From the NCBI GenBank assembly GCA_902585605.1, contig CACIED010000001.1, positions 469,573 to 533,572 of the forward strand: DNA of 64,000 bases. The letters run 5' to 3'. Source of the stretch: an uncultured Alphaproteobacteria bacterium. Lineage in GTDB: Bacteria > Pseudomonadota > Alphaproteobacteria > HIMB59 > GCA-002718135. The notes beneath the pieces were generated by a model, which was not told where the DNA came from, made no database searches, and saw only the letters and a program-made list of their open reading frames with translations. The translations under genes were made by a program, and so were the position numbers. Below are positions 22,492-61,121 of the stretch, in pieces (position 1 is the stretch's first letter; every line of letters starts with the position of its first letter).

Positions 22492-22514
22492 TACATTTTG
22501 TCATATGCTTAGAT

Positions 22515-23630
22515 ATGAAATTTAAAATATCACGTTCAAATTTCTTTAAATCACTTTCTCACTTACAGGGCGTTGTTGATAAAAGGAACTCACTTCCAAT
22601 TTTAGCAAATATTTTAATTGAAGCTAAAGATAATAAATTGATTTTATCTTCGACTGATATGGATATCTCAATAATTGAAAAAATATCTTGTAATGTTGCA
22701 GAAGAAGGAGCCACTACTATAAACTCACAGATACTTTATGACATTGTTAGAAAAATAGATGATAACAGTCAAATTGAAATTATTTCAAACAATGGCAAAA
22801 TTCTCACTTTGAGATCAGAAGGATCAAGATTTTCATTGGCATGCCTACCTAAAGAAGATTATCCGATAATTGAAAAAGAAAATCCAGGTGTCGATATTAC
22901 TTTAAATTCAAAAATTCTTTTTAAATTAATTGATAAAACTAAATTTGCTATTTCTAATGAAGAAACAAGATATTTTTTAAATGGTCTTTATTTTAATGTA
23001 ACAAATGAAGAAAATAAAAATATTGTTACTCTCGTTGGTACAGATGGTCATAGACTTGCAAAATTTAGTCACGTAATTGAAAAAAAAATAGATCAAGTAT
23101 CAGGAGTAATTATTCCTAAAAAAACAATCTATGAATTATCAAAATTATTATCAGAAAATGATATTGATGTAAAAATATCAATTAGCACAAATAAAATAGT
23201 ATTTATAGTTGGTGAAATTGTATTTATATCTAAACTAATAGATGGCAGCTTTCCAGATTATAAAAGAGTGATTCCCAATGATAATAAAAATATTCTAAAA
23301 ATTAATAGAGATAAATTATTATCTGCTGTTGATAGGGTTAGCACAATAGCAAATGAAAAATCTCCAGTAATAAAATTTAAATTATTAGAAAATATTCTTA
23401 ATTTAAATACTATAAATAATGAAAGTAGCACTGCTTCAGAGGATTTGAAAATAAATTATGAAGGTAAGGATATAGAAATTGGATTTAATTCAAAATATAT
23501 TATGGATATAGTAAATAATTTGGAAGATACAGAAATATCAATTAGTTTAAAAGATAATACCTCTCCAGTAATTGCACAAGAAAATTCAAATACGAATCTT
23601 GTATATGTTTTAATGCCTATGAGAGTCTAA
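22515..23630 (+). CDS. dnaN: DNA polymerase III beta sliding clamp
   Basis: 371 aa with three-domain clamp pattern and C-terminal MPMRV. dnaA-dnaN-recF-gyrB order. Confidence 0.95.
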   Translation: MKFKISRSNFFKSLSHLQGVVDKRNSLPILANILIEAKDNKLILSSTDMDISIIEKISCNVAEEGATTINSQILYDIVRKIDDNSQIEIISNNGKILTLRSEGSRFSLACLPKEDYPIIEKENPGVDITLNSKILFKLIDKTKFAISNEETRYFLNGLYFNVTNEENKNIVTLVGTDGHRLAKFSHVIEKKIDQVSGVIIPKKTIYELSKLLSENDIDVKISISTNKIVFIVGEIVFISKLIDGSFPDYKRVIPNDNKNILKINRDKLLSAVDRVSTIANEKSPVIKFKLLENILNLNTINNESSTASEDLKINYEGKDIEIGFNSKYIMDIVNNLEDTEISISLKDNTSPVIAQENSNTNLVYVLMPMRV

Positions 23631-23633
23631 AAT

Positions 23634-27178
<3,545 letters not shown>

Positions 27179-27184
27179 TTTTTA

Positions 27185-28414
27185 ATGAATACTATTTTAC
27201 TTGGCAACCTTATAAAAATAAGATGGATAGCCATTATAGGTCAGATAATAGCAATATTTTTTGTTTCATTTATTATTAAAATACAAATCCCTTTTTTCGA
27301 AACTCTAACAATAATCTTACTATCAGTTGCTATCAATTTTTATTCCTATTATGAAGAAAGAAAAAATAAAACTATTAGTAATATAAAGGCTTTTTCTTTT
27401 TTGCTTTTCGACACTTTACAATTAGGATTTTTACTTTTTTTGACTGGTGGAATAATTAATCCATTTTCGATATTAATTTTAGCACCTGTCATAACTTCAG
27501 CTTCTTATTTGCCAGCATTAATGACAGTAATTCTTTCAACAATTTCTATTATAATTATAGTTTTATTAAATTTTTATTTTATTCCTCTTGATTTAGGTTC
27601 TAAATTTTATCTACCAGAATTATATAGTTTTGGTTTAGTTGCAGCATTAATTATCACAGTAATTTTTATAGCTATTTATGCCTATCTTTTTGCAAGTTCT
27701 TCAAGAAAAATTTCTAATGCTTTATCTATTTCAAAACTTCAGATTTTAAATCAAAAAAAAATGACCGAGGTCGGCTCGTTAAGTGCAGCTGCTGCACATG
27801 AATTAGGCACTCCACTCAATACTATTTTTTTAATTTTAAACGATCTTTTAAAAGAAGAAAAATTAATAGGAGATAGCAATATTGCAAAAGATATTATTTT
27901 ACTCAAATCTCAAGCTGAAAGATGTAAAGAAATATTACAAAGATTTTCCAAAAATCCTTTAAAACTAAAGGACAAATTTCTAGAAAAGGTAAAAATATCA
28001 GATTTAATAAAAATAAATTTCGATAAGTTTAATAAAAATAAAAAACTAATTTTGGAGATACAACCTCCAAATGATGAGCCTGAAATTATCTTTAGAGATG
28101 AAATTATGTACGCACTTGGGAATATCATACAAAATTCAATATATTTTTGTACCACAACTACAAAAGTAAAAATAAAATATAAAAAATCAGATCTTAAAAT
28201 TACTATTTCTGATGATGGAAAAGGATTTTCAAAAGATATACTTGATAAATTAGGTGAGCCTTATGTATCAAAAAATAAACAAGGAATGGGATTAGGTATA
28301 TTTATCGCAAAAAATTTGATTGAAAATATGGGAGGTAACCTGAACTTTTTTAATTCTAACGAAAACTATGCTAATGTTGAAATAATTTTTGAAAACTCTA
28401 TCTTAAATATATGA
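27185..28414 (+). CDS. regB: redox-sensing histidine kinase RegB/PrrB
   Basis: Six-TM N-terminus carrying the RegB quinone-site heptapeptide GGxxNPF (GGIINPF, nt 27446-27466). H-box SAAAAHELGTPLNTI. Redox-box Cys context QAERCKEIL. Followed by regA. Confidence 0.85.
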   Translation: MNTILLGNLIKIRWIAIIGQIIAIFFVSFIIKIQIPFFETLTIILLSVAINFYSYYEERKNKTISNIKAFSFLLFDTLQLGFLLFLTGGIINPFSILILAPVITSASYLPALMTVILSTISIIIIVLLNFYFIPLDLGSKFYLPELYSFGLVAALIITVIFIAIYAYLFASSSRKISNALSISKLQILNQKKMTEVGSLSAAAAHELGTPLNTIFLILNDLLKEEKLIGDSNIAKDIILLKSQAERCKEILQRFSKNPLKLKDKFLEKVKISDLIKINFDKFNKNKKLILEIQPPNDEPEIIFRDEIMYALGNIIQNSIYFCTTTTKVKIKYKKSDLKITISDDGKGFSKDILDKLGEPYVSKNKQGMGLGIFIAKNLIENMGGNLNFFNSNENYANVEIIFENSILNI

Positions 28415-28938
28415 CTATGAAACTACTAATAGTTGATGATGACTTGCCATTTAGAGAACGTCTAACCAGATCGATGGAAAAAAAAGGATTTAATGTAACT
28501 TCTTCTCCTGGTTTCAAAGACTCTCTGATAAAAGTAAATGATACCAACTTTGATTATGCAGTCGTCGATATGAGACTTGAAGATGGATCTGGACTTGAAT
28601 TAATTAAAGAATTACAAAAAGTTAGTCCTAACACAAAATCATTATTGTTAACGGGATACGGAAATATAGCAACAGCAGTTGCAGCAATAAAATCAGGGGC
28701 AATAGACTATTTGCCAAAACCGGCAGAAATTGATCAAATTTACGACGCATTAACTAATTCTAAGGAAATATTACCCCCTCCTCCAGAAAATCCTATGACT
28801 GCAGATAGAATTAGGTGGGAACATATCCAAAGAGTGTTTATACAATGTAATAGAAATGTTTCTGAAACTGCAAGAAGGTTAAGAATGCATAGAAGAACTT
28901 TACAAAGAATTCTTAATAAGCACGCACCAAGAGAATAA
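28411..28938 (+). CDS. regA: response regulator RegA/PrrA/ActR
   Basis: Receiver domain plus the near-invariant RegA HTH NVSETARRLRMHRRTLQRIL. 175 aa. Confidence 0.9.
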   Translation: MTMKLLIVDDDLPFRERLTRSMEKKGFNVTSSPGFKDSLIKVNDTNFDYAVVDMRLEDGSGLELIKELQKVSPNTKSLLLTGYGNIATAVAAIKSGAIDYLPKPAEIDQIYDALTNSKEILPPPPENPMTADRIRWEHIQRVFIQCNRNVSETARRLRMHRRTLQRILNKHAPRE

Positions 28939-29966
28939 TGAATTACGAAATTTCAATTATTGTTCCAATCTATAATGAATTCAGAATAATTGAAAGTTTT
29001 ATAAAAAAACTCTTTGATACTTTTTCCAATGTTAAATCAAAATATATATTTATTGATGATGGATCCAATGATGGAAGCAAAGAGTGGTTAGAAAAAAATT
29101 TAAGTTCAATCTTTAAAAATAAAAACTACGTATTTATTAGTCTAGACAAAAATAAAGGTAAAGGTTTTGCCGTAAAGCAAGGAATATCAAAAGTTGAAGG
29201 ATTTCACACAATTTTTATCGACTCAGATCTTGAGTATGATCCAAAAGATGCTTTAGATCTATATAATCAAGTAAAAAGAAATGAAGATATAAAAGTAATT
29301 TATGGTTCAAGATATTTGAGTGGCAAGCTACAATTGAGAAGACATTTTTTTAATGATATTGCCGTTAGATTAAATACATGGATTTTTAATTTGTTATTTG
29401 ATCAATCAATTACTGATTTGCATACAGGAACAAAAATAGTTGAAAATACTCTATTAAAAAGTTTAAAACTCTCCTTGAATAGGTTTGGTTTAGAAATTGA
29501 TCTAAGTAGTCAAATATCTAAAAAAAATATCAATATCTATGAAAGTGGAATTAGTTATATTGAGAGAACAGTTGAAGAAGGTAAGAAGATTACTTTTGTT
29601 GATGGATTATTAAGTTATTATTTTTTATTTAGAGCTAGATTTTTACAAAACGATCTACAAACACAAACTTCATTACTCTATTCATTAATCATGATGATGT
29701 ATATCGGATCATACTTTGGTATGGGTATAGGTAAAACCTTAATTATTATTATTTTTGCATTAATTGGCTTACTCAATGCAATGCACAGAAAATTAATTCC
29801 ACTTAGTATTATTTTTATTAGTATATTTATTGGTAGTTTGTTCAGTTCCGGTAACGGTAGAATCTATCCTATATTAATATTTTATTTTTTTAGTTTATGG
29901 ATTTCTAAAAAAATTTCTAAAAGATTTAACAGCCAAGACAATTATTTGCTAAAGTTCTTTATTTAG
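28938..29966 (+). CDS. family-2 glycosyltransferase with C-terminal multi-TM extension (polyprenyl-phosphate glycosyltransferase type: ArnC/GtrB/DPM1-like)
   Basis: GT-A motifs ISIIVPIYNE, IDDGSNDGS, DSDLEYDP. About 120 C-terminal residues form 4-5 hydrophobic helices. TAATG coupling to the regA stop. Confidence 0.8.
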   Translation: MNYEISIIVPIYNEFRIIESFIKKLFDTFSNVKSKYIFIDDGSNDGSKEWLEKNLSSIFKNKNYVFISLDKNKGKGFAVKQGISKVEGFHTIFIDSDLEYDPKDALDLYNQVKRNEDIKVIYGSRYLSGKLQLRRHFFNDIAVRLNTWIFNLLFDQSITDLHTGTKIVENTLLKSLKLSLNRFGLEIDLSSQISKKNINIYESGISYIERTVEEGKKITFVDGLLSYYFLFRARFLQNDLQTQTSLLYSLIMMMYIGSYFGMGIGKTLIIIIFALIGLLNAMHRKLIPLSIIFISIFIGSLFSSGNGRIYPILIFYFFSLWISKKISKRFNSQDNYLLKFFI

Positions 29967-30882
29967 TAATCTTTAAAAAAATACTCTCCAAATCTTCATC
30001 ATATGTTTTGATTTCTGAAAATATAATTTTATTTTTATCAAGTTCTTTGATAATTTCACTTAAACTTATTTTTTTTTTATTATATTCAAAAATTAATGAA
30101 TTCTCACCATCATAATTATAAATTAAAGGTTTTAATTTCTCAGGCATTGATATATTTTTACTAATAATATCAAATTTTACTTTTCGATTTGAAAATAAAT
30201 TTAATAGGTTATCTTTCTTGTCTTCTATTATCTTAATTCCTTTATTTATAATTGTAATTAAATCACACATTTTCTCTGCCTCTTCAAGGTAATGAGTGGT
30301 CAAACAAATAGTTTTCCCCATTTGTTTTAATTCACCTACATATTTCCATAAGTTTTGCCTCAACTCTACATCTACGCCTGCAGTTGGTTCATCTAAAACG
30401 ATTACATCTGGATTGTGCACTAAAGCTTTAGCTATTAAAAGTCTTCTTCTCATACCTCCAGATAAAGTTCTTGCATAAGCGTTTCTTTGATCCGATAATC
30501 CTAGATCATGTAATATTTTTTCAGTTCTTCTATTTTTTTTTCTAATTCCGTACAATCCTGCTTGCAATTCTAAAAGCTCAAAAGGAGTAAAGAAAGGATC
30601 AATATTTAATTCTTGTGGCACAATACCAATTTTCTTTCTTGTAGCTATTGCATTGATATCTTGATTAATACCCTCAATATAAACAGTGCCTTGTGTTTTT
30701 TTTACAATACCTGATAGTATATTAATAAATGTTGACTTTCCTGCACCATTTGGACCAAGAAGACCATAAATACATCCTTTAGGAATATTTATAGAAAAAT
30801 CCTGCAAAGCGTTTATTTTTTGATTATCTTTTATAAATATCTTAGATAAATTTTTTACTTCTATTGCGAATTTATTATTCAT
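29959..30882 (-). CDS. ABC transporter ATP-binding protein (ABC-2/YadG-like, with C-terminal extra domain); no adjacent permease
   Basis: Walker A GPNGAGKST, signature LSGGMRRRL, Walker B VIVLDEPT, H-loop TTHYLEE. 307 aa. Confidence 0.9.
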   Translation of the reverse strand: MNNKFAIEVKNLSKIFIKDNQKINALQDFSINIPKGCIYGLLGPNGAGKSTFINILSGIVKKTQGTVYIEGINQDINAIATRKKIGIVPQELNIDPFFTPFELLELQAGLYGIRKKNRRTEKILHDLGLSDQRNAYARTLSGGMRRRLLIAKALVHNPDVIVLDEPTAGVDVELRQNLWKYVGELKQMGKTICLTTHYLEEAEKMCDLITIINKGIKIIEDKKDNLLNLFSNRKVKFDIISKNISMPEKLKPLIYNYDGENSLIFEYNKKKISLSEIIKELDKNKIIFSEIKTYDEDLESIFLKITK

Positions 30883-32137
30883 GATTAAAAAATTTTTTAA
30901 TTAGTTCTATGTTTCTTATTACCTGATTTTTACCATAATGAGGATATGTAGGAAGCAAAATAATATTATTTACAACCTCTCTAATATTTTTTAATTCTTT
31001 ATTTTTATACTTTTTAAAAATGTTTAACTCATTACAATTTCTATAAAAGTAAATTGCAAGATCTCTGTCATTTTCATACAGATAATTTATCAATTTATCT
31101 CTTTTATGATACTGTATAGGAAAATTAATCCAACCATTTTCAAAGTTATGTTGAAATTTTGGAATAATTAAATCATTAATATCCTTTAAATTCTCAAAGT
31201 ATAGTTTCGCATTTTCAATCCTTATATTTAAATCTTTTTTATAATATTTTAATTGTTTTAAAATATTATCAGACTGGCTTAAAGAAATAATTTTTTTATA
31301 ATTTTCTGGAAGTTGTTCTTGTAAATATGGATTTGGATCATTTTTACTAAAATTATTTATAAATTTAATATTAAATTTATAACCAAGCTTAACAATGTAG
31401 CTTGTAAAAAATTTAAATACCATACCATTGGTTGCAACTGTAACAAATAGTGATTTAATATAATTTTTAAGCAAGCCTCTATAATCGTGTGATTTAAATT
31501 TTTTATGTTCACTAAGTATTTTATTGTATATCGAGTCATCTTTAGTCATTATTAGGCCTCCATTTAGTGAACTAATAAATTTAAAAATCCCAAAACTAAA
31601 AAATGAAATATCACCCAATGTGCCTACGAATTTATCTTTTGTTTTTGTTCCAAAACTAATGGCACAATCCTCTATTAGATATATATTATTTTTTTTTGTA
31701 AAATTAATAATTTTATTTATATCCTTATTGATTAAATGAGTATGAGTAATTAGAATGCCAGCAACTTTGTCATCGTAAACTTTTTCAATAGAATTAATAT
31801 CTATTGTAATACTTTTTTTATCTACATCACTAAACACAGGAACACCTCCAGCACATATAACCATGTTAACGATATCAAATATTGTAAATGGAGATAAAAT
31901 TATTTTATTTTTATTTGGTTTTATACAAGCTTTTATTGCTAAGTATGCCCCTAGTCGACCTTTATTGATACATAGTGTATTTTTTATACCGAAATGCTTC
32001 TTAAAATAATTATTTAAAATTTTTGTCTTATTTAAATTAAATAAATTAAATGTAATAAAATGTAATAAATTTTTTATTAAATAAAATTTGTATATTTTTT
32101 GTCTTGGATTCGGTCTCATTTTTATAAATTCTGACAT
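30875..32137 (-). CDS. DegT/DnrJ/EryC1/StrS-family PLP-dependent sugar aminotransferase (divergent)
   Basis: Fold-type I layout: IKNTLCINKGRLGAYLAIKA, LIEDCAISFG, and candidate PLP-Lys segment SFFSFGIFKFISSLNGG. N-terminal ~60 aa are atypical. Confidence 0.65.
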   Translation of the reverse strand: MSEFIKMRPNPRQKIYKFYLIKNLLHFITFNLFNLNKTKILNNYFKKHFGIKNTLCINKGRLGAYLAIKACIKPNKNKIILSPFTIFDIVNMVICAGGVPVFSDVDKKSITIDINSIEKVYDDKVAGILITHTHLINKDINKIINFTKKNNIYLIEDCAISFGTKTKDKFVGTLGDISFFSFGIFKFISSLNGGLIMTKDDSIYNKILSEHKKFKSHDYRGLLKNYIKSLFVTVATNGMVFKFFTSYIVKLGYKFNIKFINNFSKNDPNPYLQEQLPENYKKIISLSQSDNILKQLKYYKKDLNIRIENAKLYFENLKDINDLIIPKFQHNFENGWINFPIQYHKRDKLINYLYENDRDLAIYFYRNCNELNIFKKYKNKELKNIREVVNNIILLPTYPHYGKNQVIRNIELIKKFFNHE

Positions 32138-33186
32138 TAAAAAAAATTATTTAAAAAGTTATTAACTATATCATTAGAAATCGGCCCAGGTTTTTTTTGG
32201 TCGATAAATGGCATACTTATTCCACTTATGTTTTTTGACAAGCTATTAAAAATTTTATTTATATTTTCATTATCTATTTTTAGATTACAATAATGTATAG
32301 AATCTCCAAATTTTCTTAAATTACTTACCTCTGATATCAGTCTATTATCATAATCTAGTTTAAGCTCTAAATGTTTTTGTTTATTATAAAAAATTTGATC
32401 AACATAGAAAGGTACATTTAAATTTAAGTTGTTTATGGATTTTTGATAACCCGTAAAATGTTTTATTGCTCTTATTAAATCATATTTTATAACAACATCT
32501 TTCACATGATTATTTAGTATAATATTACTAGAAGTAGTTATTCTAAATTTGTGATCAAATTCAGATAGATTAATCTTGCTGTTATTTATAATTATTTTGG
32601 ATCTATATAATAAATCAATTAATTGAGAGAAACTAATTGCTAATATCAGTTTGTTTGTTAGGACTATTTCATAATTCTTTTTATTTTTAAAATAAATCTT
32701 TAATTTAATTGAATCAGAGTCAATCATTATTGAGTGAAGAAAACCTTTCTGGATTTTTTTAATTAAAAATTTAGAATCAATTATATTATTATATTTATCT
32801 ATCATTTGAGCTATGCCATCTTTATTTGATTTATAACCATTGCTATTATTATTTATTTGTTTCAATTTAAAATTTTTTTCAAGTTCGGTTAAAGTATTTT
32901 TTTGTAATTCATCTATGTTTATAAAACCACCCCAAATGTTAGAATGACCACCAATAGAAAGTCTATCATGAATTCTTGTTTTATTGTTAAGTCTATAATT
33001 AAAATTACCAAATGATTTTGTAACTGAGGAAAAAAATTTATTTACATTAAGATTTTTTCTTTCTTTGAATTTTTCTTTTAAATAAATTTCATTATCTAAA
33101 GATATTGTTACTGGATTAAATTTTTCTAAAAATATATTTGCAATTAGAGCTGAAAAACCACTACCAATAATTACAAATTTTTCCAT
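32137..33186 (-). CDS. hypothetical protein with N-terminal dinucleotide (FAD/NAD)-binding motif, possibly a reduced GMC-like oxidoreductase
   Basis: MEKFVIIGSGFSALIA (GxGxxA beta-alpha-beta start) and GGHSNIWGG, which resembles the GGxSxxWxG segment of FAD oxidoreductases. The rest is unrecognisable and I/N/K-rich. Confidence 0.4.
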   Translation of the reverse strand: MEKFVIIGSGFSALIANIFLEKFNPVTISLDNEIYLKEKFKERKNLNVNKFFSSVTKSFGNFNYRLNNKTRIHDRLSIGGHSNIWGGFINIDELQKNTLTELEKNFKLKQINNNSNGYKSNKDGIAQMIDKYNNIIDSKFLIKKIQKGFLHSIMIDSDSIKLKIYFKNKKNYEIVLTNKLILAISFSQLIDLLYRSKIIINNSKINLSEFDHKFRITTSSNIILNNHVKDVVIKYDLIRAIKHFTGYQKSINNLNLNVPFYVDQIFYNKQKHLELKLDYDNRLISEVSNLRKFGDSIHYCNLKIDNENINKIFNSLSKNISGISMPFIDQKKPGPISNDIVNNFLNNFF

Positions 33187-33288
33187 ATTTTAATTAAATT
33201 GAACAATTATTAAATATAACTTGGTAATTATACAACTGATTTAAAAATTATCTTTTTAAAATTATTAAATTAATTTATTAAATATTTG

Positions 33289-33999
33289 ATGAACAAAAAA
33301 GTTATAATATTAACTAGTAAAGACAAAATAATAAACTTTACTTTGATAAATAATCTTAAAAAAAACAGTAATATTAAAATTTTGTCTGTAATATCTTTAA
33401 AAGAAAACAATACAATTAAAAAAAAAATTAAATTAATTTTTTTACTAAATATACAAAATATAATAGAAATTTTATATAAATTATTAATTGGATTATTTTC
33501 AAATAAAAACTTAATAATAAATAGTGTATTTTATAGAGATATAAATTCGAAAATAACTATTGATTATATAAATTCTTTAAAAAGCGAATTAGTAATTTGT
33601 ATAAACTGTCCTCAAATATTAACAAATAACACTATTAAATTGATAAAAGCTCCCTTATATAATTTTCATCCAGGAGATATTCCAAGTTATAGAGGAGTTT
33701 TTATTCCTTTTTTTCTTTTAAAAAATAAAACAAATAAAGCTTGTCTGACTTTTCACAAAATATCAGTAGAAATTGATAATGGTGAAATTATTAATAAAAA
33801 ATATTATGATATCAAAAATTCAGACAATATTTATTCTATATATAAAAAAATTTTTATTTCTGCTGAGGCAATATCATTTATTACAGATTGCATAGAGCAC
33901 TCAAAGAAATTAAATTTTCAAATTAATCCTGAAGATGAAAACAGATACTACACTTATCCCAATTTAAAAGAGATACTTATGTTTCGTCTTGGTTTGTAA
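33289..33999 (+). CDS. formyltransferase-family protein (Fmt/ArnA-N/PurN-like N-domain only)
   Basis: YNFHPGDIPSYRG matches the N-x-H-x-x-x-LP-x-YRG formyl-transfer motif. A downstream Asp context (VEIDNGEII) is present. The ORF track starts at TTG 33286; ATG at 33289 is preferred. Confidence 0.6.
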   Translation: MNKKVIILTSKDKIINFTLINNLKKNSNIKILSVISLKENNTIKKKIKLIFLLNIQNIIEILYKLLIGLFSNKNLIINSVFYRDINSKITIDYINSLKSELVICINCPQILTNNTIKLIKAPLYNFHPGDIPSYRGVFIPFFLLKNKTNKACLTFHKISVEIDNGEIINKKYYDIKNSDNIYSIYKKIFISAEAISFITDCIEHSKKLNFQINPEDENRYYTYPNLKEILMFRLGL

Positions 34000-35347
34000 A
34001 ATTAAAATTTGTTAAACTTATTAGTAATCCTAATGCAAAAAAAACTTCAATTCCATACCAGTTTTTAAGTAAACTACCTGTCGACATTATTGGCCAAAAG
34101 AGTGTAAAAAAAATTATTAAGCTAAATTTGTTATTAATTGTATTAATATTTTTGATTATTTTTATGAAAATAAATATTAACATTATTAAAAATGAGATTA
34201 ATCCTATTAAACCAGTTTCGCTTAAAAATTGAATATAAATGTTGTGAGGGTGCGCACTACATTTTCCATAATTAATTTTTACAGAACTATATTTATTATC
34301 TGCTAGGCATGTATTTTCATAATTATTTAAACCTACACCAGTGATTTTATTATCCATCCACATTTTAAATGCATCTGAATAAATTCCAAAATAAACAGAT
34401 TTATCAAAGTATTTTATAACTTCAGTAAATTGTGGGTTTGTTTTTATTATTTTCGAACAGTTTACATTTTTATTTTCTGGACATGGTCCAAATTTTTCAA
34501 TTAACAATCCATGATGATAAGGCGTTGAGTCAATTATAGTATAATCATAATTCATTTTATGGTAATTATTTGTTAAAAAAATAAGTATAGATGAAAAGAC
34601 TATTGAAATAATTACAAGTTTTCTTTTATTTTTAATTAATAATAATAATAATACAATACCTAATGATGTTGTCGCAAATGCCATTGCTTCACCACTTAAC
34701 CATACTACAAAGCTAGCAAGGCTCAGGTACAAAATCAATGCTATATCAAAAGTATAGCTTTTATTTTTAATCAATAAAAAATAAAATATTGGAAAGAAAA
34801 TATACCTCGAAATATGTGATCCTGGAATATCATCACTAAAAGGACCTGTTAATCTTCCATAATGAGTTGATGTAAAACCGAATAAATCTGGTCCAAATCC
34901 TTGTAATGAATCATAATTTAAAAACTGATACAGGCAATCTATGGTAACAAACATTAAAGTAATTAAAATAATAATAATAAGAGTATATAAGCTTTTTTTT
35001 GAAACAATGAGCCAACAATTAATTGCAATACAAAATATAATGTATCTAATAAATATTAAAGACTCAGTAAGAGAGATGACGTAATTATTTGAAAAAAAAC
35101 TAGTAAAAACTAAAGAAGACCAAAAAAATAGTGAAGCAATGATCCAATGTTTTTTAATCCAAGTAAAGTTTCTATTAAAAATTGAAGCCAATAAAAAAAA
35201 GATACAAATAAGTGTAATTGAAATATCAGGTATAGCTGGTCCAGTTAGCAATGATATTGGTAATAAATATAATAAAATTATTGATATTTTTCTTAAATCA
35301 AATTTAATATAGCTTAACATAGAATTATTTATTATTTTATAAGACAT
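33977..35347 (-). CDS. O-antigen ligase / Wzy_C-family polytopic membrane protein (WaaL- or PglL-like)
   Basis: At least 10 predicted TM helices. A large loop ends in the family motif SAHPHNIYIQFLSETGLIG (H-x-H-N ... E-x-G). Confidence 0.65.
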   Translation of the reverse strand: MSYKIINNSMLSYIKFDLRKISIILLYLLPISLLTGPAIPDISITLICIFFLLASIFNRNFTWIKKHWIIASLFFWSSLVFTSFFSNNYVISLTESLIFIRYIIFCIAINCWLIVSKKSLYTLIIIILITLMFVTIDCLYQFLNYDSLQGFGPDLFGFTSTHYGRLTGPFSDDIPGSHISRYIFFPIFYFLLIKNKSYTFDIALILYLSLASFVVWLSGEAMAFATTSLGIVLLLLLIKNKRKLVIISIVFSSILIFLTNNYHKMNYDYTIIDSTPYHHGLLIEKFGPCPENKNVNCSKIIKTNPQFTEVIKYFDKSVYFGIYSDAFKMWMDNKITGVGLNNYENTCLADNKYSSVKINYGKCSAHPHNIYIQFLSETGLIGLISFLIMLIFIFIKIIKNINTINNKFSLIIFFTLFWPIMSTGSLLKNWYGIEVFFALGLLISLTNFNFTNQDET

Positions 35348-35349
35348 AG

Positions 35350-38091
35350 ATGAGCAAATTACAAAAATTAATACTTGTTGATGGTTCAGCTTATATATTT
35401 AGAGCTTACTATGGTTTACCTCCTATGAACAGATCAGATGGTACACCTATTAATGCAGTTTTTGGATTTACCAATATGCTTGTTAAACTTATAGAAGATT
35501 ATAGCAACGATAGAATGATAATAATTTTTGATGCCGCTAGGGAAAACTTTAGAAATAAAATTTATTCAGAATATAAAGCTAATAGAGGTGAAGCACCAGA
35601 CGATTTAATTCCACAATTTCCATTAATAAGAGATTGTGTAAAAAGCTTTAATATACCACAGCTAGAAATAGAAGGATATGAAGCAGATGATTTAATTGCA
35701 ACGTATGTTAATCTGGCAAAAAAAGATGATATTGAGACTATTATAGTATCCTCTGACAAAGATTTAATGCAGCTTGTGAGTAAAAAGGTGACAATGCTTG
35801 ATCCAATGAAAAACAAAAAAATTGAAATTAAAGATGTTGAGGAAAAATTTGGAGTCAAACCCGATAAAGTCATTTTTATTCAAGCTCTAACAGGTGATAA
35901 AGTAGATAACATCCCAGGTGCTCCAGGTATAGGCCCTAAGACAGCATCTCAATTAATAAATGAATATAATGATATTGATGGATTACTAAAAAATGTTGAT
36001 AAAATTAAACAAGAAAAAAGAAGAAACGTTTTAAGAGAGGCAGAAAAGGATATAAGAATAAGCTTAGAGCTAGTAACGCTAAAAAATGATGTCAAGATAC
36101 CTAAGAGCATTGATAAAATAAGAACTTATAATGAATTAAAAAATGAAAATAATAATATCTTTGATTTTCTTAAAGAGCAGGGCTTTAGATCAACATCTGA
36201 AAGATTAAAATCTAATTCTTTTATATCTGGTGATAATGATAACATCGTTCAAAAAAAACAAATACAGCCAAAGTATCAATTAATTAATTCAAAGAATAAT
36301 TTTGAAAAAGTTTTAAAAGAAATTGAAAAAAATGGCATTTGCGCCATTGATACTGAGACAAACTCACTTAATATAGAAAAAGCTAAATTAGTTGGTATAT
36401 CAATTTGTTGCAGTGAAAGTACTTCTTATTATATTCCTATAAACCATACTACTTTAGATGGTTCTAAAAAAATTGATAATCAGTTAGAGGAAAAATATGT
36501 AATTAATCATATTAAAAAAATATGTGAAAATGAATCGATCTTAAAAATTGGGCAAAACATAAAATATGATATTAGAATCTTAAATAAGTATGGAGTAATT
36601 TTTAATTCAATTGCAGACACTATGTTGCTTTCCTATTCAATTGATAATGGAATTTTTAAACACAATTTAGATGATCTATCATTTAATCATTTAAATCATA
36701 CAACAATTAAATATAAGGAAGTCGTTGGAACAGGGAAAAATGAAATCACTTTTGATAAAGTAACCATTGATAAGGCAATTAATTATGCTGCAGAAGATTC
36801 TCTATTAACATTCAGGCTTTTTCATCATCTCTATCCTCGTTCAGTAAAAGAAAAGACTAATTTTGTTTATCGAAACATCGATTTACCTCTTATAGAGGTA
36901 TTATCTTCAATCGAAGCAAATGGCATTGAGGTAAATAAAGTGTTTTTAACAAATCTAAGTTATGAATTTGAAAATGAAAGTAAAAAACTTGAAAAGAATA
37001 TTTACAAACTTTCAAAGAAAGAGTTCAATATTGGCTCACCAAAGCAATTAGGAGAGATATTATTTATTAATCTTAAAATACCTGGTGGAAAAAAAACAAA
37101 ATCAGGCACTTATTCTACTGATTCTTCAACTTTAAATAATTTAGCTTCAGAGGGATTTGAAATTGCTAAACTTGTTCTTGATTGGAGAGAGTTAACAAAG
37201 CTTAAATCAACATATACAGATGCTTTATTTAGATTAACAGATGGTAAAAGTAGAGTTCATACATCATTTGGTTTAGCTAATACACTAACTGGACGATTAA
37301 GCTCTACAGATCCTAATCTTCAAAATATTCCAATTAGAACTGAAAATGGCAAAAAAATAAGAACAGCATTTATTAGTGGAAAAGGAAAAAAACTAGTTAG
37401 TTTCGATTATTCACAAATAGAACTAAGATTGGCTGCAGAAATTTCAGGAGATAAAAATTTTATCAAAGCATTTAACAATAATGAAGACATTCATGCAGCA
37501 ACGGCTAAGGAAATATTTAGTTTGAAAGATAGTCAAATTAATAATGATTACAGAAGAAAAGCAAAAGCAATTAATTTTGGGATTCTATATGGCATTAGTC
37601 CATATGGTTTGGCAAAGCAACTTGATATTTCAAACACAGAAGCAAAAGATTACATAAATGAGTATTTTAATAAATATCCAAATATAAAAAAATACATGGA
37701 CCATCAAATCGATTTTGCAAAAACAAACCAATATGTTGAAACAATTTTTAAAAGAAAAATTAATATAAAAGGGATTACAGATAAGAATTTTGCTGTAAGA
37801 GGTTTCGCTGAAAGACAAGCTATTAATGCGCCAATACAAGGTAGTGCGGCTGATATTATTAAGTTAGCAATGATTGAAATTCATAAAGAAATAAAACTTA
37901 AAAACATTGAGGCAGAAATGCTTTTACAAGTACACGACGAACTGATTTTCGAAGTTGAAAGTAAAAAATATGATAATTTAGTAAGTAATGTAAAAACAAT
38001 TATGGAGTCAGTGCATTTAAAGTACAAAAATTTTTCAGTTCCATTAACCGTTGATTATGGAGCTGGTGATAATTGGGGTCAGGCACATTAA
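35350..38091 (+). CDS. polA: DNA polymerase I
   Basis: 5'-3' exonuclease N-domain, 3'-5' exonuclease (AIDTETNSL), and polymerase motifs A (DYSQIELR), B (RRKAKAINFGILYG) and C (QVHDEL). 913 aa. Confidence 0.97.
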   Translation: MSKLQKLILVDGSAYIFRAYYGLPPMNRSDGTPINAVFGFTNMLVKLIEDYSNDRMIIIFDAARENFRNKIYSEYKANRGEAPDDLIPQFPLIRDCVKSFNIPQLEIEGYEADDLIATYVNLAKKDDIETIIVSSDKDLMQLVSKKVTMLDPMKNKKIEIKDVEEKFGVKPDKVIFIQALTGDKVDNIPGAPGIGPKTASQLINEYNDIDGLLKNVDKIKQEKRRNVLREAEKDIRISLELVTLKNDVKIPKSIDKIRTYNELKNENNNIFDFLKEQGFRSTSERLKSNSFISGDNDNIVQKKQIQPKYQLINSKNNFEKVLKEIEKNGICAIDTETNSLNIEKAKLVGISICCSESTSYYIPINHTTLDGSKKIDNQLEEKYVINHIKKICENESILKIGQNIKYDIRILNKYGVIFNSIADTMLLSYSIDNGIFKHNLDDLSFNHLNHTTIKYKEVVGTGKNEITFDKVTIDKAINYAAEDSLLTFRLFHHLYPRSVKEKTNFVYRNIDLPLIEVLSSIEANGIEVNKVFLTNLSYEFENESKKLEKNIYKLSKKEFNIGSPKQLGEILFINLKIPGGKKTKSGTYSTDSSTLNNLASEGFEIAKLVLDWRELTKLKSTYTDALFRLTDGKSRVHTSFGLANTLTGRLSSTDPNLQNIPIRTENGKKIRTAFISGKGKKLVSFDYSQIELRLAAEISGDKNFIKAFNNNEDIHAATAKEIFSLKDSQINNDYRRKAKAINFGILYGISPYGLAKQLDISNTEAKDYINEYFNKYPNIKKYMDHQIDFAKTNQYVETIFKRKINIKGITDKNFAVRGFAERQAINAPIQGSAADIIKLAMIEIHKEIKLKNIEAEMLLQVHDELIFEVESKKYDNLVSNVKTIMESVHLKYKNFSVPLTVDYGAGDNWGQAH

Positions 38092-47853: not shown

Positions 47854-48771
47854 ATGAACTCTGATCATAGTGATTTAGAAAAAATTGAGGACGGATTATC
47901 TAATAAATTAATTTATAGGATTACTAAAAAAGAGAATACCAAAATAATAATTGATTTTTCTAGAGATAAACAAGAGTTTAAAAATTTCCTTACTGTTTAT
48001 GAAATATTACAAAAGATTAATATATCAATTCCTAAGATATATGAAGTTAATCAAAAGCAATATAAAATATATATGCAAGATTTTGGAAAAAATAGATTTA
48101 ATAAAATATACAATAAAAATAATCTTTATAAACTTTTAAAATTAGCTGTAGAAAATATTATTGTTATCCAAAATGAATCAAATTTAAATAATTTAAAAAA
48201 ATTAAAAGAATACACCTTTGAAGATTTAAAAATTGAACTTAAAGAGTTTGTTTCTTATTATATTCCTAACAACAAAAATTCGAATTTTCCAACTTCAAAA
48301 TTTTATGAATCATGGAAAAGTATATTTTATTCTCAAAATTATAATATGAAAAATTTTGTTCACAAAGACTTTGAATTTGTTAATTTATTTTTTTTAGAAA
48401 ATTGTGAATCACATTTACAATGTGGAATTATTGATTTTCAAAGTGCTTTTAAGGGATTTATAGGATGGGATCTAATATCACTATTAGAAAATCCAAGAAT
48501 TAATTTTACACAAAATTACAATGATAAATTAATTGAATATTTTTATGATAACACTTCAATTATTGAAAATTTTAATACTTTTCTGGAACAATATTATGTT
48601 TTAAGTTTAGCTCGACAGACTCGATTACTTGGTAGATGGAGAAAATTATTTAGCACAAATAATGATAATAAATACTTAAACTATTTAAAAATAACTAAAT
48701 TTAGAACAATAGCGACATTGAAAAATATTAAAAATTATGAACTAAGATCAATGTATGAAAAGTATTTATAA
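47854..48771 (+). CDS. aminoglycoside-phosphotransferase-fold kinase (AmgK-like anomeric MurNAc/GlcNAc kinase candidate)
   Basis: Brenner motif HKDFEFVN and IIDFQSA (DFG-equivalent). Conserved tsaE-kinase-nucleotidyltransferase arrangement of Alphaproteobacteria. Confidence 0.6.
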   Translation: MNSDHSDLEKIEDGLSNKLIYRITKKENTKIIIDFSRDKQEFKNFLTVYEILQKINISIPKIYEVNQKQYKIYMQDFGKNRFNKIYNKNNLYKLLKLAVENIIVIQNESNLNNLKKLKEYTFEDLKIELKEFVSYYIPNNKNSNFPTSKFYESWKSIFYSQNYNMKNFVHKDFEFVNLFFLENCESHLQCGIIDFQSAFKGFIGWDLISLLENPRINFTQNYNDKLIEYFYDNTSIIENFNTFLEQYYVLSLARQTRLLGRWRKLFSTNNDNKYLNYLKITKFRTIATLKNIKNYELRSMYEKYL

Positions 48772-48774
48772 TTT

Positions 48775-61120: not shown

Positions 61121-61121
61121 T

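What the first reader, a model, noticed from the sequence alone, without database searches (positions are those of the whole stretch)
28938..35347. AT-rich six-gene envelope-glycan islet between regBA and polA: Arn-like formamido-sugar logic built from non-canonical parts
**What the sequence shows.** This is the only accessory-looking block between otherwise core genes.
- It is visibly even more AT-rich than its flanks, and its proteins are strongly I/N/K-rich.
- It encodes a GT2 with a multi-TM tail, of the polyprenyl-phosphate glycosyltransferase type (ArnC/GtrB).
- It encodes a DegT-family aminotransferase (ArnB-like).
- It encodes a stand-alone formyltransferase N-domain protein with a HPGDIPSYRG motif (ArnA-N-like).
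- It encodes a Wzy_C/WaaL-family membrane protein that could perform a periplasmic transfer step.
- It also encodes an FAD-motif ORF and an ABC ATPase.

**Inference.** Together these parts resemble a pathway that makes a formylated amino sugar on a polyprenyl-phosphate carrier and attaches it to LOS, lipid A or a protein.

**What is missing or unusual.**
- Standard parts are absent locally: no NDP-sugar dehydratase or dehydrogenase, no sugar nucleotidyltransferase, no Wzx/ArnEF-type flippase and no deformylase.
- The GT2 start is translationally coupled to the regA stop (TAATG at 28936-28940). This places the first islet gene in the redox-responsive regBA transcription unit.
- No integrase, tRNA or flanking repeats are present, so this is not a classical mobile island.
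Basis: partly seen in the sequence, partly recalled or inferred. Interest (0 to 1): 0.6.

Follow-up and report, generated by a model that had tools for sequence, protein, structure and literature searches.

The report
Swappable surface-sugar cassette in SAR11
Between the regA and polA genes of this marine SAR11-type bacterium lies one version of a swappable gene cassette that most likely makes a formylated amino sugar and attaches it to the cell surface, using a previously undescribed small flavoprotein in place of the usual sugar dehydrogenase.

Summary
The six genes are real and the domain calls hold. They are a GtrB/DPMS/ArnC-type GT2, an ABC ATPase, a DegT aminotransferase, an orphan flavoprotein (ORF4), a sugar N-formyltransferase with Asn/His/Asp intact, and a WaaL-fold Wzy_C protein. 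The block is the lowest-GC 6.4 kb of the window.

It is not unique to this genome. It is one allele of a position-locked, hypervariable cassette bounded exactly by the regA stop and the polA start. Relatives carry nothing, ABC only, GT2+WzyC+ABC, or GT2+WzyC plus a tailoring module:
- ORF4+DegT+formyltransferase (this window);
- ORF4+DegT+GNAT acetyltransferase;
- ORF4+SDR;
- a methyltransferase.

DegT had an N-acyltransferase next to ORF4 in 18/18 informative loci (10 formyl, 8 acetyl). ORF4 belongs to a small family (229 clusters in 1.84 billion) with no Pfam match. Its fold and motifs resemble a miniature GMC oxidoreductase, the likely keto-sugar generator that explains the "missing" dehydrogenase.

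The Arn analogy holds as logic (amination, formylation, polyprenyl-P carrier) but not as membership. There is no ArnT, ArnD or ArnEF, and scores fall far below the Arn equivalog cut-offs. The ABC ATPase is a resident of the junction without a permease. Acceptor, sugar identity and step order remain inferred.

Verdict: a new variant of a known kind, of moderate interest.

The parts
28411..28938 (+). regA (response regulator); left anchor of the cassette. Its stop overlaps the GT2 start (TAATG at 28936-28940).
   Evidence: ORF list. Sequence. 90-95% identical in close relatives. The overlap with GT2 is conserved in all GT2-bearing variants. DNA identity to close relatives ends at 28937-28981.
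28938..29966 (+). GT2: polyprenyl-phosphate glycosyltransferase type (GtrB/DPMS/ArnC/AglJ-like), with a DSD motif at residues 95-97 and a C-terminal tail of 3-4 TM segments.
   Evidence: PF00535, E 2.5e-20. NCBIfam best hits are AglJ, PpgS and ArnC, all far below cut-off. Top PDB hits are GtrB 5ekp, DPMS 5mlz and ArnC. TM tail and DSD motif. Present if and only if WzyC is present.
29959..30882 (-). ABC-2/DrrA-type ABC transporter ATPase with no permease. Its start overlaps the DegT stop by 8 nt. Its 3' end overlaps the GT2 3' end by 8 nt.
   Evidence: PF00005, E 3e-34; TIGR01188 236 bits, below cut-off. No TM-rich ABC-2 permease in the 64 kb window. Present in every occupied junction variant. 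It falls into two sequence classes that follow gene position.
30875..32137 (-). DegT/DnrJ/EryC1-family PLP aminotransferase (start possibly Met7 at 32119).
   Evidence: PF01041, E 4e-43. 55 PDB relatives; the best is 7b0d, and the Lys in SFGIFK aligns to its Lys. Always downstream of ORF4 in the formyl and acetyl cassette types.
32137..33186 (-). ORF4: orphan FAD-type flavoprotein, a miniature GMC-like oxidoreductase (349 aa) and the proposed sugar CH-OH -> C=O oxidase.
   Evidence: No Pfam, NCBIfam or PDB sequence hit. The family has 252 word-indexed hits and 229 representative clusters. AF2 model: pLDDT 90, pTM 0.91. Best TM-scores are to GMC sugar/sterol oxidoreductases: 8qve 0.55, cholesterol oxidase 0.42-0.44. 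Three collinear GMC hallmark motifs align to E. coli BetA. Invariant G8, G10, G80, W85, G86, G87 and H298.
33187..33288 (.). 102-bp AT-rich divergent intergenic region between ORF4 (-) and the formyltransferase (+); presumed bidirectional promoter region.
   Evidence: Sequence. The promoter scan is uninformative in this AT-rich DNA: 65 sites found against 76.6 expected.
33289..33999 (+). Stand-alone sugar N-formyltransferase (WbtJ/VioF/WbkC-like, 236 aa). It occupies the variable slot that holds GNAT, SDR or nothing in other alleles.
   Evidence: PF00551, E 3.8e-11. Best PDB hits are 6nbp, 6v2t/6v33, 4nv1, 5vyr, ArnA and WlaRD. Asn125-x-His127 and Asp163 align with their catalytic residues. 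FMT/GNAT alternation across loci.
33977..35347 (-). WaaL-fold Wzy_C membrane protein (probable true start ATG 35320, 447 aa); the periplasmic transferase candidate.
   Evidence: PF04932, E 6.6e-15. AF2 model: pLDDT 90, pTM 0.90. The only significant PDB fold match is WaaL 7tpg (E 1.7e-6, TM 0.58/0.63). Motif H359-N-x9-G370-x2-G and four invariant Cys. Its sequence partitions by cassette type.
35350..38091 (+). polA; right anchor of the cassette.
   Evidence: ORF list. About 90% identical in close relatives. DNA identity to close relatives resumes at 35364-35367.

Best explanation
The block is the 'formamido' allele of a position-locked, hypervariable surface-glycan decoration cassette of Pelagibacteraceae. 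It sits exactly between the regA stop and the polA start.

**Core of the cassette**
- A GtrB/DPMS/ArnC-type GT2 that loads one sugar onto polyprenyl phosphate. It is translationally coupled to regA.
- A WaaL-fold Wzy_C membrane enzyme that transfers the finished sugar to an envelope acceptor on the periplasmic side. The acceptor is probably lipooligosaccharide and possibly a protein.

**Swappable tailoring module in this allele**
1. ORF4, a miniature GMC-like flavoprotein, oxidises a sugar hydroxyl to a ketone.
2. The DegT aminotransferase converts the ketone to an amine.
3. The WbtJ/VioF-type formyltransferase caps the amine with formyl from N10-formyl-tetrahydrofolate.

No deformylase is present, so the formamido group is displayed. 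Other alleles display acetamido, epimerised, methylated or plain sugars.

**Shown**
- Gene content, folds and catalytic motifs.
- Variability of the locus.
- Co-occurrence rules.

**Inferred**
- The chemistry of ORF4.
- The order of steps.
- The identity of the sugar, the flippase and the acceptor.
For: - **Domain, fold and motif evidence exists for each enzyme.** GT2. DegT with its catalytic Lys. Formyltransferase with Asn/His/Asp aligned to solved sugar N-formyltransferases. WzyC matching WaaL 7tpg as its only significant fold match.
- **ORF4 looks like a small GMC flavoprotein.** The model is confident. Its best TM-scores are to GMC sugar/sterol oxidoreductases. Three collinear GMC motifs align with BetA.
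- **The acyltransferase slot swaps naturally.** In the slot between WzyC and ORF4, the formyltransferase is replaced by a GNAT in L081. Across 86 ORF4 loci, DegT follows ORF4 in 25. Wherever the other side is visible (18/18), an N-acyltransferase is there: FMT in 10, GNAT in 8.
- **ORF4 takes alternative partners.** It pairs with an SDR in 22 loci, or with a 205-214 aa protein in 18 loci. It is nearly always beside a GtrB-like GT2 and a membrane transferase (WzyC, PMT_2 or DUF1420), often with GtrA.
- **GT2 and WzyC are both present or both absent** in all junction variants seen.
- **WzyC tracks the sugar type while DegT does not.** WzyC identity is 58-67% within a cassette type and 40-45% between types, including formyl vs acetyl. 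DegT does not separate formyl from acetyl types (66 vs 65%).
- **The cassette is bounded by core genes and is incongruent with them.** DNA identity breaks at the regA stop and the polA start. polA is 90% identical to relatives that carry other cassettes. The cassette genes are closest to those of lineages whose polA is only 67% identical.
- **The organism makes LPS.** lptB/A/C-like genes and a kdsD-like gene lie in the window.
Against: - No experiment exists, and no sugar or acceptor can be named.
- All characterised Wzy_C/WaaL-family enzymes (established knowledge) use undecaprenyl-PYROphosphate-linked glycans. A GtrB-type GT2 makes a MONOphosphate-linked sugar, whose usual partner is a GT-C enzyme. 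The proposed GT2 -> WzyC hand-off therefore has no precedent.
- No flippase is identifiable, and the ABC ATPase has no membrane partner.
- ORF4 has no statistically significant sequence link to GMC enzymes (hhalign probability <1% per motif). Foldseek TM-scores are modest (<=0.55).
- WzyC and the acyltransferase are adjacent. Their co-variation could therefore reflect linkage rather than specificity.
- Genomes with only the ABC gene at the junction show that the system is dispensable.
Confidence: 0.55

Rival explanations
1. Strict Arn-type pathway. All tailoring happens on a soluble nucleotide sugar in the cytoplasm. The GT2 acts last, like ArnC, and transfers the already formylated amino sugar to undecaprenyl phosphate. 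The target is lipid A or core, giving charge or antimicrobial-peptide resistance.
For: - ArnB-, ArnA-N- and ArnC-like domains are all present.
- All solved relatives of the formyltransferase, and most solved relatives of DegT, act on NDP-sugars.
Against: - Scores are far below the Arn equivalog cut-offs: ArnC 39.7 vs 529 bits, ArnB 85.9 vs 631, ArnA 51 vs 777.
- There is no ArnT/GT-C, ArnD or ArnEF, and no UDP-GlcA dehydrogenase or decarboxylase.
- The GT2 is only weakly differentiated between formyl, acetyl and SDR cassettes (56-68%), whereas WzyC is sharply differentiated (40-45%). This is not what is expected if the GT2 selected the finished sugar.
- With no deformylase, no free amine is produced, so there is no Arn-like charge effect.
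Confidence: 0.2
2. Two unrelated functions share the site. WzyC is the housekeeping O-antigen ligase for the glycan made by the large O-chain cluster elsewhere in the genome (HVR2). The ABC ATPase is the motor of that glycan's exporter. The GT2 and tailoring genes feed a different transferase, encoded elsewhere.
For: - WzyC has the WaaL fold and motif.
- In the three-gene and SDR cassette types, ABC and WzyC are adjacent and co-oriented.
- Pelagibacterales have a large, separate O-chain cluster (PMC11898729).
- Known WaaL enzymes use Und-PP donors (established knowledge).
Against: - 5 of 16 close relatives lack WzyC at this site, so it is not a universal housekeeping ligase.
- WzyC is present only when the GT2 is present.
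- WzyC clades follow the tailoring module of this cassette.
- No GT-C partner for the GT2 is present in any SAR11 junction variant.
Confidence: 0.15
3. The machinery is the same but the acceptor is a protein. WzyC would be a PglL/TfpO/TfpM-type O-oligosaccharyltransferase that decorates pilin or other periplasmic or surface proteins with the formamido sugar.
For: - The best NCBIfam hits of WzyC are TfpM (O-linking oligosaccharyltransferase, E 7e-10, partial) and a putative O-glycosylation ligase.
- Wzy_C is shared by ligases and O-OTases (established knowledge).
Against: - Both hits are far below cut-off (38.5 vs 600 bits).
- The only significant fold match is WaaL, although few O-OTase structures may be in the library.
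- No pilin or other acceptor gene is adjacent in any variant.
Confidence: 0.15
4. The six genes are merely neighbours in a gene-dense genome and do not form a pathway.
For: - SAR11 genomes are extremely compact.
- The genes lie on both strands.
- The ABC ATPase clearly persists without the others.
Against: - The same six-gene order recurs in lineages whose core genes are only about 67% identical and in many metagenome contigs.
- The co-occurrence rules are strict: GT2 with WzyC, and DegT with ORF4 and an acyltransferase.
- Start/stop overlaps link regA-GT2 and DegT-ABC.
Confidence: 0.03

Closest known systems
Arn (PmrHFIJKLM) pathway: ArnB, ArnA-N, ArnC, ArnD, ArnE/F, ArnT
   Same: It uses a DegT aminotransferase and an N-formyltransferase to make a formamido sugar. 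A GT2 puts a sugar on undecaprenyl phosphate for periplasmic transfer.
   Different: - None of the proteins reaches an Arn equivalog score.
- There is no ArnA-C dehydrogenase/decarboxylase; a GMC-like flavoprotein is present instead.
- There is no deformylase and no ArnE/F.
- The final transferase has the WaaL fold rather than the GT-C fold of ArnT.
- The formyl group is probably retained.
Three-component Gtr-type systems (GtrA/GtrB/GtrC; also Francisella FlmF2/NaxD/FlmK, Bordetella LgmABC, Rhizobium RgtE/RgtA-D)
   Same: A polyprenyl-P-sugar synthase plus a periplasmic membrane transferase adds a single sugar to LPS. These systems are small, variable and serotype-converting.
   Different: - No GtrA flippase is present.
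- The transferase is Wzy_C/WaaL-fold rather than GT-C.
- The cassette is chromosomal and fixed in position, and no phage link was found.
- It carries a built-in tailoring module.
WbpB/WbpE/WbpD and GnnA/GnnB (oxidation-transamination-N-acylation of UDP-sugars)
   Same: It follows the same three-step chemistry: hydroxyl to ketone, to amine, to N-acyl amine, using a DegT-family transaminase.
   Different: - The oxidant there is an NAD-dependent Gfo/Idh/MocA dehydrogenase. Here it is an FAD-type GMC-like protein.
- The acyltransferase there is a left-handed beta-helix enzyme. Here it is a formyltransferase or a GNAT.
DprE1/DprE2 (decaprenyl-phosphoryl-ribose 2'-epimerase of mycobacteria)
   Same: A flavoprotein oxidase plus a separate SDR reductase acts beside a polyprenyl-P-sugar pathway. 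The ORF4+SDR alleles have this layout.
   Different: - DprE1 is a VAO-family fold, not GMC-like.
- Action of ORF4 on a lipid-linked sugar is only a hypothesis.
- The SDR here is of the 'Epimerase' (extended) type.
WaaL O-antigen ligase (7tpg) and Wzy_C O-oligosaccharyltransferases (PglL, TfpO, TfpM)
   Same: It has a Wzy_C domain and the WaaL fold (TM 0.58-0.63). It carries the H-[NSQ]-x9-G-x2-[GTY] motif and conserved basic residues.
   Different: - Sequence identity is 14%.
- It has an extra periplasmic beta-sheet with four invariant Cys.
- It is genetically tied to a monophosphate-sugar synthase rather than to a phosphoglycosyl transferase/Wzx pathway.
GMC sugar oxidoreductases (C-glycoside 3-oxidase DaCGO1 8qve, pyranose 2-oxidase 7qf8; from memory also paromamine 6'-oxidase NeoQ/BtrQ, which works with an aminotransferase)
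   Same: It has a two-domain FAD fold and GMC-like motifs. Its proposed role is to oxidise a sugar hydroxyl, in this case so that a transaminase can follow.
   Different: - It is 349 aa rather than about 500-600 aa.
- It has no Pfam GMC hit.
- TM-score is at most 0.55.
- Its substrate is unknown.
Sugar N-formyltransferases WbtJ (4nv1), VioF (4yfv), WbkC (5vyr) and dTDP-Qui4N formyltransferases (6v2t, 6v33)
   Same: It is similar in size (236 aa), has an NFHPG...RG folate/catalytic motif, and the Asp aligns.
   Different: Similarity is low (E 5e-8 at best). The substrate nucleotide or lipid is unknown.

Membership tests
Arn pathway (lipid A Ara4N modification) | ArnC, ArnB and ArnA orthology (NCBIfam equivalog cut-offs) | tested here: not met
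   ArnC PRK10714 scored 39.7 vs 529 bits. ArnB PRK11658 scored 85.9 vs 631. ArnA PRK08125 scored 51.1 vs 777.
Arn pathway (lipid A Ara4N modification) | ArnT-type GT-C transferase, ArnD deformylase and ArnE/F flippase in the locus | tested here: not met
   None of the six proteins, and no neighbour, has such domains.
Polyprenyl-phosphate glycosyltransferases (GtrB/DPMS/ArnC type GT2) | GT2 catalytic domain with a DXD motif, closest to GtrB/DPMS/ArnC, plus C-terminal TM helices | tested here: met
   PF00535. The top three PDB sequence families are GtrB, DPMS and ArnC. DSD at residues 95-97 and 3-4 TM segments at residues 246-306+.
Polyprenyl-phosphate glycosyltransferases (GtrB/DPMS/ArnC type GT2) | Formation of a polyprenyl-monophosphate sugar | not testable with these tools
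   This needs an enzyme assay.
DegT/DnrJ/EryC1 sugar aminotransferases | PF01041 fold with the PLP-binding Lys (rather than the His of dehydrases) | tested here: met
   E 4e-43. The Lys of SFGIFK aligns to the Lys of FSFYPTK in 7b0d.
Sugar N-formyltransferases | Formyl_trans_N fold with the catalytic Asn-x-His and Asp | tested here: met
   PF00551. NFHPG aligns to NFHPG, and EID aligns to EVD/EID, in 6nbp and 6v2t. Positions N125, H127 and D163.
GMC oxidoreductases (ORF4) | Match to Pfam GMC_oxred_N/C or PROSITE signatures | tested here: not met
   No Pfam or NCBIfam hit at E <= 0.1. The A1 profile finds no PDB sequence.
GMC oxidoreductases (ORF4) | Two-domain FAD fold with GMC topology and hallmark motifs in order | tested here: inconclusive
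WaaL / Wzy_C family | Wzy_C domain, WaaL fold, and the periplasmic-loop His motif H[NSQ]x9Gxx[GTY] | tested here: met
   PF04932. 7tpg is the only significant fold match. H359-N360-x9-G370-x2-G373 is invariant or nearly so.
WaaL / Wzy_C family | Und-PP-linked glycan donor and lipid A-core acceptor | not testable with these tools
   The genetic context (a GtrB-type GT2, with no phosphoglycosyl transferase or Wzx) argues for a different donor. This is inference only.
Classical genomic island | Integrase, tRNA target and flanking direct repeats | tested here: not met
   No tRNA, no significant repeats, and no integrase among the ORFs.
SAR11 flexible genomic islands (equivalent-position, replaceable cassettes) | Same chromosomal position in all genomes, alternative gene sets of related function, and core-gene boundaries | tested here: met
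   At least seven configurations occur between regA and polA. Boundaries are sharp. The concept is described in PMC11796062.

The most novel reading that the evidence does not exclude
The ORF4 family may be a new class of flavoenzyme that oxidises sugars already attached to polyprenyl phosphate. It would be a functional analogue of DprE1 with a different, mini-GMC fold. Amination, N-formylation or N-acetylation, or epimerisation would then take place on the lipid carrier. A WaaL-fold enzyme would use the resulting polyprenyl-MONOphosphate monosaccharide as donor. Together these would define a previously unrecognised type of periplasmic single-sugar glycosylation system, built as GT2 + tailoring + WaaL-like instead of GT2 + GtrA + GT-C.
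Probability: 0.25. Interest if true: 0.8.

Novelty: new variant of a known kind. Interest (0 to 1): 0.55.

Why it matters
SAR11 is the most abundant bacterial group in the ocean. Its surface glycans are thought to shape phage susceptibility and strain coexistence.

- **A second variable surface locus.** Besides the large O-chain cluster, these cells carry a compact, recombining cassette at a fixed site about 6.5 kb from dnaA. Its first gene is fused to the redox-responsive regBA operon. The cassette can switch the displayed sugar between plain, methylated, epimerised, acetamido and formamido forms.
- **An uncharacterised flavoprotein family.** ORF4 belongs to a small family that consistently accompanies lipid-carrier glycosylation genes.
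- **An unusual enzyme pairing.** A GtrB-type synthase is paired with a WaaL-fold transferase.

Both the flavoprotein and the pairing give clear, testable biochemical predictions.

Tried and rejected
- **Sequence link from ORF4 to solved structures.** The A1 profile against PDB sequences gave nothing.
- **GMC comparison set from fetched loci.** A regex scan of all fetched loci for PROSITE GMC signatures found none. E. coli BetA was used instead. It gave only sub-significant but collinear motif matches.
- **Promoters and terminators.** The scan across the islet was uninformative in this AT-rich DNA, with fewer promoter-like sites than in shuffles.
- **Flanking repeats, tRNAs and Rfam.** Nothing was found. 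The classical mobile-island reading is rejected.
- **Phage carriage of ORF4 or WzyC.** There were no relatives in viral contigs.
- **ABC-2 permease.** None was found in the 64-kb window. The idea that the GT2 tail serves as the ABC membrane domain was considered. It was set aside because ABC-only junctions exist.
- **Literature.** No paper describing this locus, or a GMC-type oxidase plus DegT pair in LPS synthesis, was found in the held library.

Full report
**1. Observation**

| Gene | Coordinates, strand | Length |
|---|---|---|
| GT2 | 28938-29966 (+) | 342 aa |
| ABC ATPase | 29959-30882 (-) | 307 aa |
| DegT aminotransferase | 30875-32137 (-) | 420 aa (possibly 414) |
| ORF4 | 32137-33186 (-) | 349 aa |
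| formyltransferase | 33289-33999 (+) | 236 aa |
| Wzy_C protein | 33977-35347 (-) | 456 aa (probably 447, from ATG 35320) |

- Pfam confirms PF00535, PF00005, PF01041, PF00551 and PF04932. ORF4 gets no hit, and NCBIfam agrees.
- The regA stop and the GT2 start overlap as TAATG at 28936-28940.
- The islet has GC 0.227. It is the lowest of 576 sliding 6.4-kb windows (mean 0.275, sd 0.019). Its DegT-ORF4-formyltransferase core is 0.204. Its proteins are richer in I+N+K than the rest (0.35 vs 0.30).
- There is no tRNA, no Rfam family and no integrase. Only chance AT-rich repeats occur.
- The window starts near the replication origin. By size, order and N-terminal sequence, dnaA, dnaN, recF and gyrB lie at 21.1-27.2 kb, upstream of regB and regA. 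The same order is Pfam-annotated in L081 and L082. The islet is therefore about 6.5 kb from dnaA.
- Exact-sequence look-up places the window on a 629-kb NCBI contig. Cluster mates of its polA are named Pelagibacteraceae.

**2. The individual proteins**

- **GT2.** Its three best solved relatives are GtrB (5ekp), dolichol-P-mannose synthase (5mlz) and ArnC (9hwj, 9bhc, 8vxh), all polyprenyl-phosphate glycosyltransferases. Its best NCBIfam models are AglJ, PpgS and ArnC, all far below cut-off. It has a DSD motif and a hydrophobic tail of 3-4 segments.
- **DegT.** It has 55 solved relatives. The Schiff-base lysine is aligned, so it is a transaminase and not a dehydrase.
- **Formyltransferase.** Its best solved relatives are stand-alone sugar N-formyltransferases: 6nbp, 6v2t/6v33, WbtJ 4nv1 and WbkC 5vyr, then ArnA and WlaRD. 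NFHPG...RG and EID align to their catalytic Asn-x-His and Asp. The refutation condition 'lacks Asn/His/Asp' is therefore not met.
- **Wzy_C protein.**
  - It has no sequence hit in the PDB.
  - A confident AlphaFold model (pLDDT 90, pTM 0.90) has one significant fold match: the O-antigen ligase WaaL 7tpg (E 1.7e-6, TM 0.58/0.63). FtsW follows at a distance.
  - It carries H359-N-x9-G370-x2-G. From my own knowledge this matches the ligase motif H[NSQ]x9Gxx[GTY].
  - It also has four invariant cysteines in a periplasmic beta-sheet insert.
- **ABC ATPase.** It is of the DrrA/NodI (ABC-2) type. No membrane partner exists in the 64-kb window.

**3. ORF4**

- **Family size.**
  - The word-indexed search found 252 homologues. 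All are about 350 aa with no Pfam domain, and those that carry a name are called 'hypothetical'.
  - An exhaustive HMM search of 1.84 billion cluster representatives found only 229.
- **Fold.** The AlphaFold model is confident (pLDDT 90, pTM 0.91). Foldseek places it among two-domain FAD enzymes. The highest TM-scores all go to GMC-type oxidoreductases:
  - C-glucosyl oxidoreductase 8qve, 0.55;
  - cholesterol oxidase, 0.42-0.44;
  - fructose dehydrogenase 8jej, 0.44;
  - pyranose 2-oxidase 7qf8, 0.41.
  - Non-GMC flavoproteins score 0.25-0.35.
- **Motifs.** Profile comparison with E. coli BetA picks out three collinear GMC hallmarks. Each is non-significant alone:
  - GxGxxG, residues 3-13 against BetA 4-14;
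  - IGGHSNIWG, residues 78-86, against LGGSSLING 85-93;
  - residues 178-197 against the GMC signature-2 region, BetA 252-271.
- **By eye only.** Invariant H298 (IHYCN) and near-invariant N338 (SMPF...PGPISND) resemble BetA's FHPCGT and SIMPQ...GNLNAT, the region that holds the GMC catalytic His/Asn pair.
- **Conclusion.** I conclude with moderate confidence that ORF4 is a miniature, highly diverged GMC-like flavoprotein.

**4. The junction in other genomes**

I anchored on RegA rather than on islet genes and fetched 80 loci from species-representative genomes. Two lineages share the order gyrB-regB-regA-[x]-polA-grx-nrdB-nrdA.

- **Distant lineage** (RegA 63% identical). regA and polA are adjacent, with nothing between them.
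- **The 16 closest loci.** Thirteen of these (L001-L013) have flanks about 90% identical to the window. They carry either ABC only (5 loci, one with an FkbM-like methyltransferase) or GT2+WzyC+ABC (11 loci, one with a SAM methyltransferase). None of the 80 has DegT, ORF4 or the formyltransferase.
- **Following ORF4 homologues** to their contigs showed further variants:
  - the same six-gene architecture at the same junction in Pelagibacterales SAG-MED31 (L082) and in L087;
  - a version with a GNAT acetyltransferase in place of the formyltransferase (L081);
  - a version GT2-ORF4-SDR-WzyC without DegT (L086).
- **Boundaries.** DNA identity between the window and its close relatives stops at 28937-28981 and resumes at 35364-35367. 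These are the regA stop and the polA start.
- **In the wild.** Metagenome contigs L089, L090 and L125 carry the window's own cassette at 94-97% nucleotide identity.
- **Incongruence with core genes.**
  - The window's polA is 90-91% identical to L001-L013 and 67% to L081/L082.
  - Its ABC, GT2 and WzyC are closer to L081/L082: 68-69%, 64-66%, and 58% (L082 only; 41% to L081).
  - They are more distant from L001-L013: 59%, 42-47% and 44-46%.
  - The cassette has therefore been exchanged or kept as an old polymorphism, independently of the core.

**5. Census of ORF4 neighbourhoods**

A metagenome scan with the ORF4 profile added 80 loci. Neighbours were labelled by tblastn with proteins from the window and from the annotated loci. 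This gave the following among 86 non-duplicate loci.

| Neighbour of ORF4 | Loci |
|---|---|
| DegT immediately downstream | 25 |
| ...of which the other side is visible | 18 (formyltransferase 10, GNAT 8, neither 0) |
| SDR adjacent | 22 (14 with the layout SDR-ORF4-GT2) |
| Overlapping upstream 205-214 aa protein of unknown family | 18 |

- In several E-type loci the full order polA|ABC-WzyC-SDR-ORF4-GT2|regA is visible.
- The third group has more distant members, with locus GC of 0.21-0.46. Their neighbours are GtrA, GtrB-like GT2, PMT_2 GT-C, DUF1420 or GT9 genes.
- ORF4 therefore tracks lipid-carrier periplasmic glycosylation modules. It takes one of three kinds of downstream partner.
- The formyl/acetyl alternation is the strongest evidence that the DegT product is an amine that gets N-acylated.

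**6. Who sees the finished sugar?**

Pairwise identities within and between cassette types are shown below. Types are B = plain, C = formyl, D = acetyl, E = SDR.

| Protein | Within type | Between types |
|---|---|---|
| WzyC | 58-67% | 40-45% (C vs D 45%) |
| DegT | C-C 66% | C-D 65% |
| GT2 | 56-68% (C, D, E) | 56-64% among C, D and E; 43-44% to B |
| ABC | 67-76% | two classes, {B,E} and {C,D}, 59-61% apart |

- The two ABC classes follow the gene's position in the cassette.
- This pattern is expected if WzyC handles the finished sugar and DegT acts before acylation.
- It also hints that the GT2 acts on a common precursor, so that tailoring happens after loading onto the lipid.
- The caveat is that WzyC and the acyltransferase are adjacent. 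Linkage alone could produce part of this pattern.

**7. Coupling to regBA**

- In the window and in L081, L082, L086 and L087 the overlap is TAATG.
- In the plain type, the GT2 starts at an ATG 14 nt before the regA stop, giving a 17-nt overlap.
- Every GT2-bearing allele is thus translationally coupled to regA.
- Co-transcription is inferred, not shown. The promoter and terminator scan is uninformative here.

**8. Mechanism proposed**

Shown:
- the parts, their folds and their catalytic residues;
- the co-occurrence rules;
- the variability of the locus.

Inferred pathway:
1. ORF4 makes a keto-sugar.
2. DegT aminates it.
3. The formyltransferase caps it using N10-formyl-THF.
4. The GT2 provides the polyprenyl-phosphate carrier, either before or after tailoring.
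5. An unidentified flippase moves the lipid-linked sugar across the membrane.
6. The WaaL-fold enzyme transfers the sugar to LOS or a protein.

No deformylase is present, so the formyl group is displayed.

The main weakness concerns the WaaL-fold enzyme's donor.
- All characterised Wzy_C enzymes use pyrophosphate-linked donors (established knowledge).
- A GtrB-type GT2 makes monophosphate-linked sugars.
- Either this WaaL-like enzyme has a new donor type or the two proteins do not hand over directly.

The ABC ATPase is the only gene present in all occupied junctions. It is conserved at 87-91% among the ABC-only genomes L001, L002, L003 and L006, and L009 is more divergent at 72-74%. It is translationally coupled to DegT here. 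Its role (flipping, or something unrelated) is unresolved.

**9. Comparison with what is known**

- The Arn pathway shares the logic but not membership. Equivalog scores are failed by a wide margin, and there is no ArnT, ArnD or ArnEF.
- Closer functional analogies are:
  - Gtr-type three-component systems;
  - the WbpB/E/D and GnnA/B oxidation-transamination-acylation triads;
  - DprE1/DprE2, for the SDR alleles.
- SAR11 literature describes small flexible islands at equivalent positions, enriched in cell-wall modification genes (PMC11796062). It also describes the large O-chain cluster/HVR2 at 7-15% from dnaA (bioRxiv 10.64898/2026.04.03.716430; PMC11898729).
- I found no description of this regA-polA cassette, of the ORF4 family, or of a GtrB-type/WaaL-type pairing.
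- No relatives of ORF4 or WzyC occur in viral contigs.

**10. Verdict**

- This is a real, recurrent, uncharacterised system. It is best called a new variant of known lipid-carrier glycan-decoration systems, and it contains one new enzyme family.
- Interest is moderate (0.55).

Noticed in passing
window 29959-30882; L001-L016: The DrrA-type ABC ATPase is the only gene found in every occupied regA-polA junction, including junctions with no glycan genes. It never has an adjacent permease. It falls into two sequence classes (59-61% apart) that follow its position in the cassette.
   Followed up: partly
L083:9364-10008, L084:9391-10008, L088:9370-10008 and 15 further loci: A 205-214 aa protein family with no Pfam hit always overlaps the start of distant ORF4 homologues. 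Its N-terminus looks Rossmann-like, and it has a 'DLIVVCGYDY' stretch reminiscent of formyltransferase N domains. It is absent from the window. It may be a third kind of partner for the flavoprotein.
   Followed up: partly
L009:4746-5495; L015:1878-2591: Further junction variants carry methyltransferases. L009 has an FkbM-like methyltransferase next to ABC, with no GT2 or WzyC. L015 has a SAM methyltransferase between GT2 and WzyC.
   Followed up: partly
L132:311-6363; L128: In L132 the ORF4 homologue lies on the other side of polA, while WzyC, GNAT and DegT stay at the junction. In L128, ORF4 directly abuts polA. Both indicate rearrangement within the cassette.
   Followed up: no
window 35320-35352: By longest ORF, the WzyC and polA start codons are divergent and only 2 bp apart. 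With the more likely WzyC start at Met10 the gap is about 29 bp. Either way, each gene's promoter must lie inside the other's coding region.
   Followed up: partly
window 47854-49455: An APH-family kinase and an NTP_transferase sit side by side (an AmgK/MurU-like pair, after a 148-aa ORF that looks TsaE-like by sequence only). Their GC is very low (0.20-0.22). This is the only sugar nucleotidyltransferase in the window, but it looks like a core cell-wall recycling pair rather than part of the islet.
   Followed up: partly
window 59168-62081: An lptB-like ABC ATPase and a SIS+CBS (kdsD-type) gene are identified by Pfam. The two short ORFs between them look like lptA and lptC by size and position only. 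This suggests the organism exports LPS or LOS.
   Followed up: partly
window 21097-28938: The order dnaA-dnaN-recF-gyrB-regB-regA places the cassette about 6.5 kb from dnaA, next to the presumed replication origin. It is well outside the known SAR11 hypervariable region HVR2.
   Followed up: partly
window 27000-36500: There are six terminator-like hairpins against 1.6 expected from shuffles. All lie inside coding regions (regB, regA, WzyC, polA), and none lies at a gene end in the islet.
   Followed up: no
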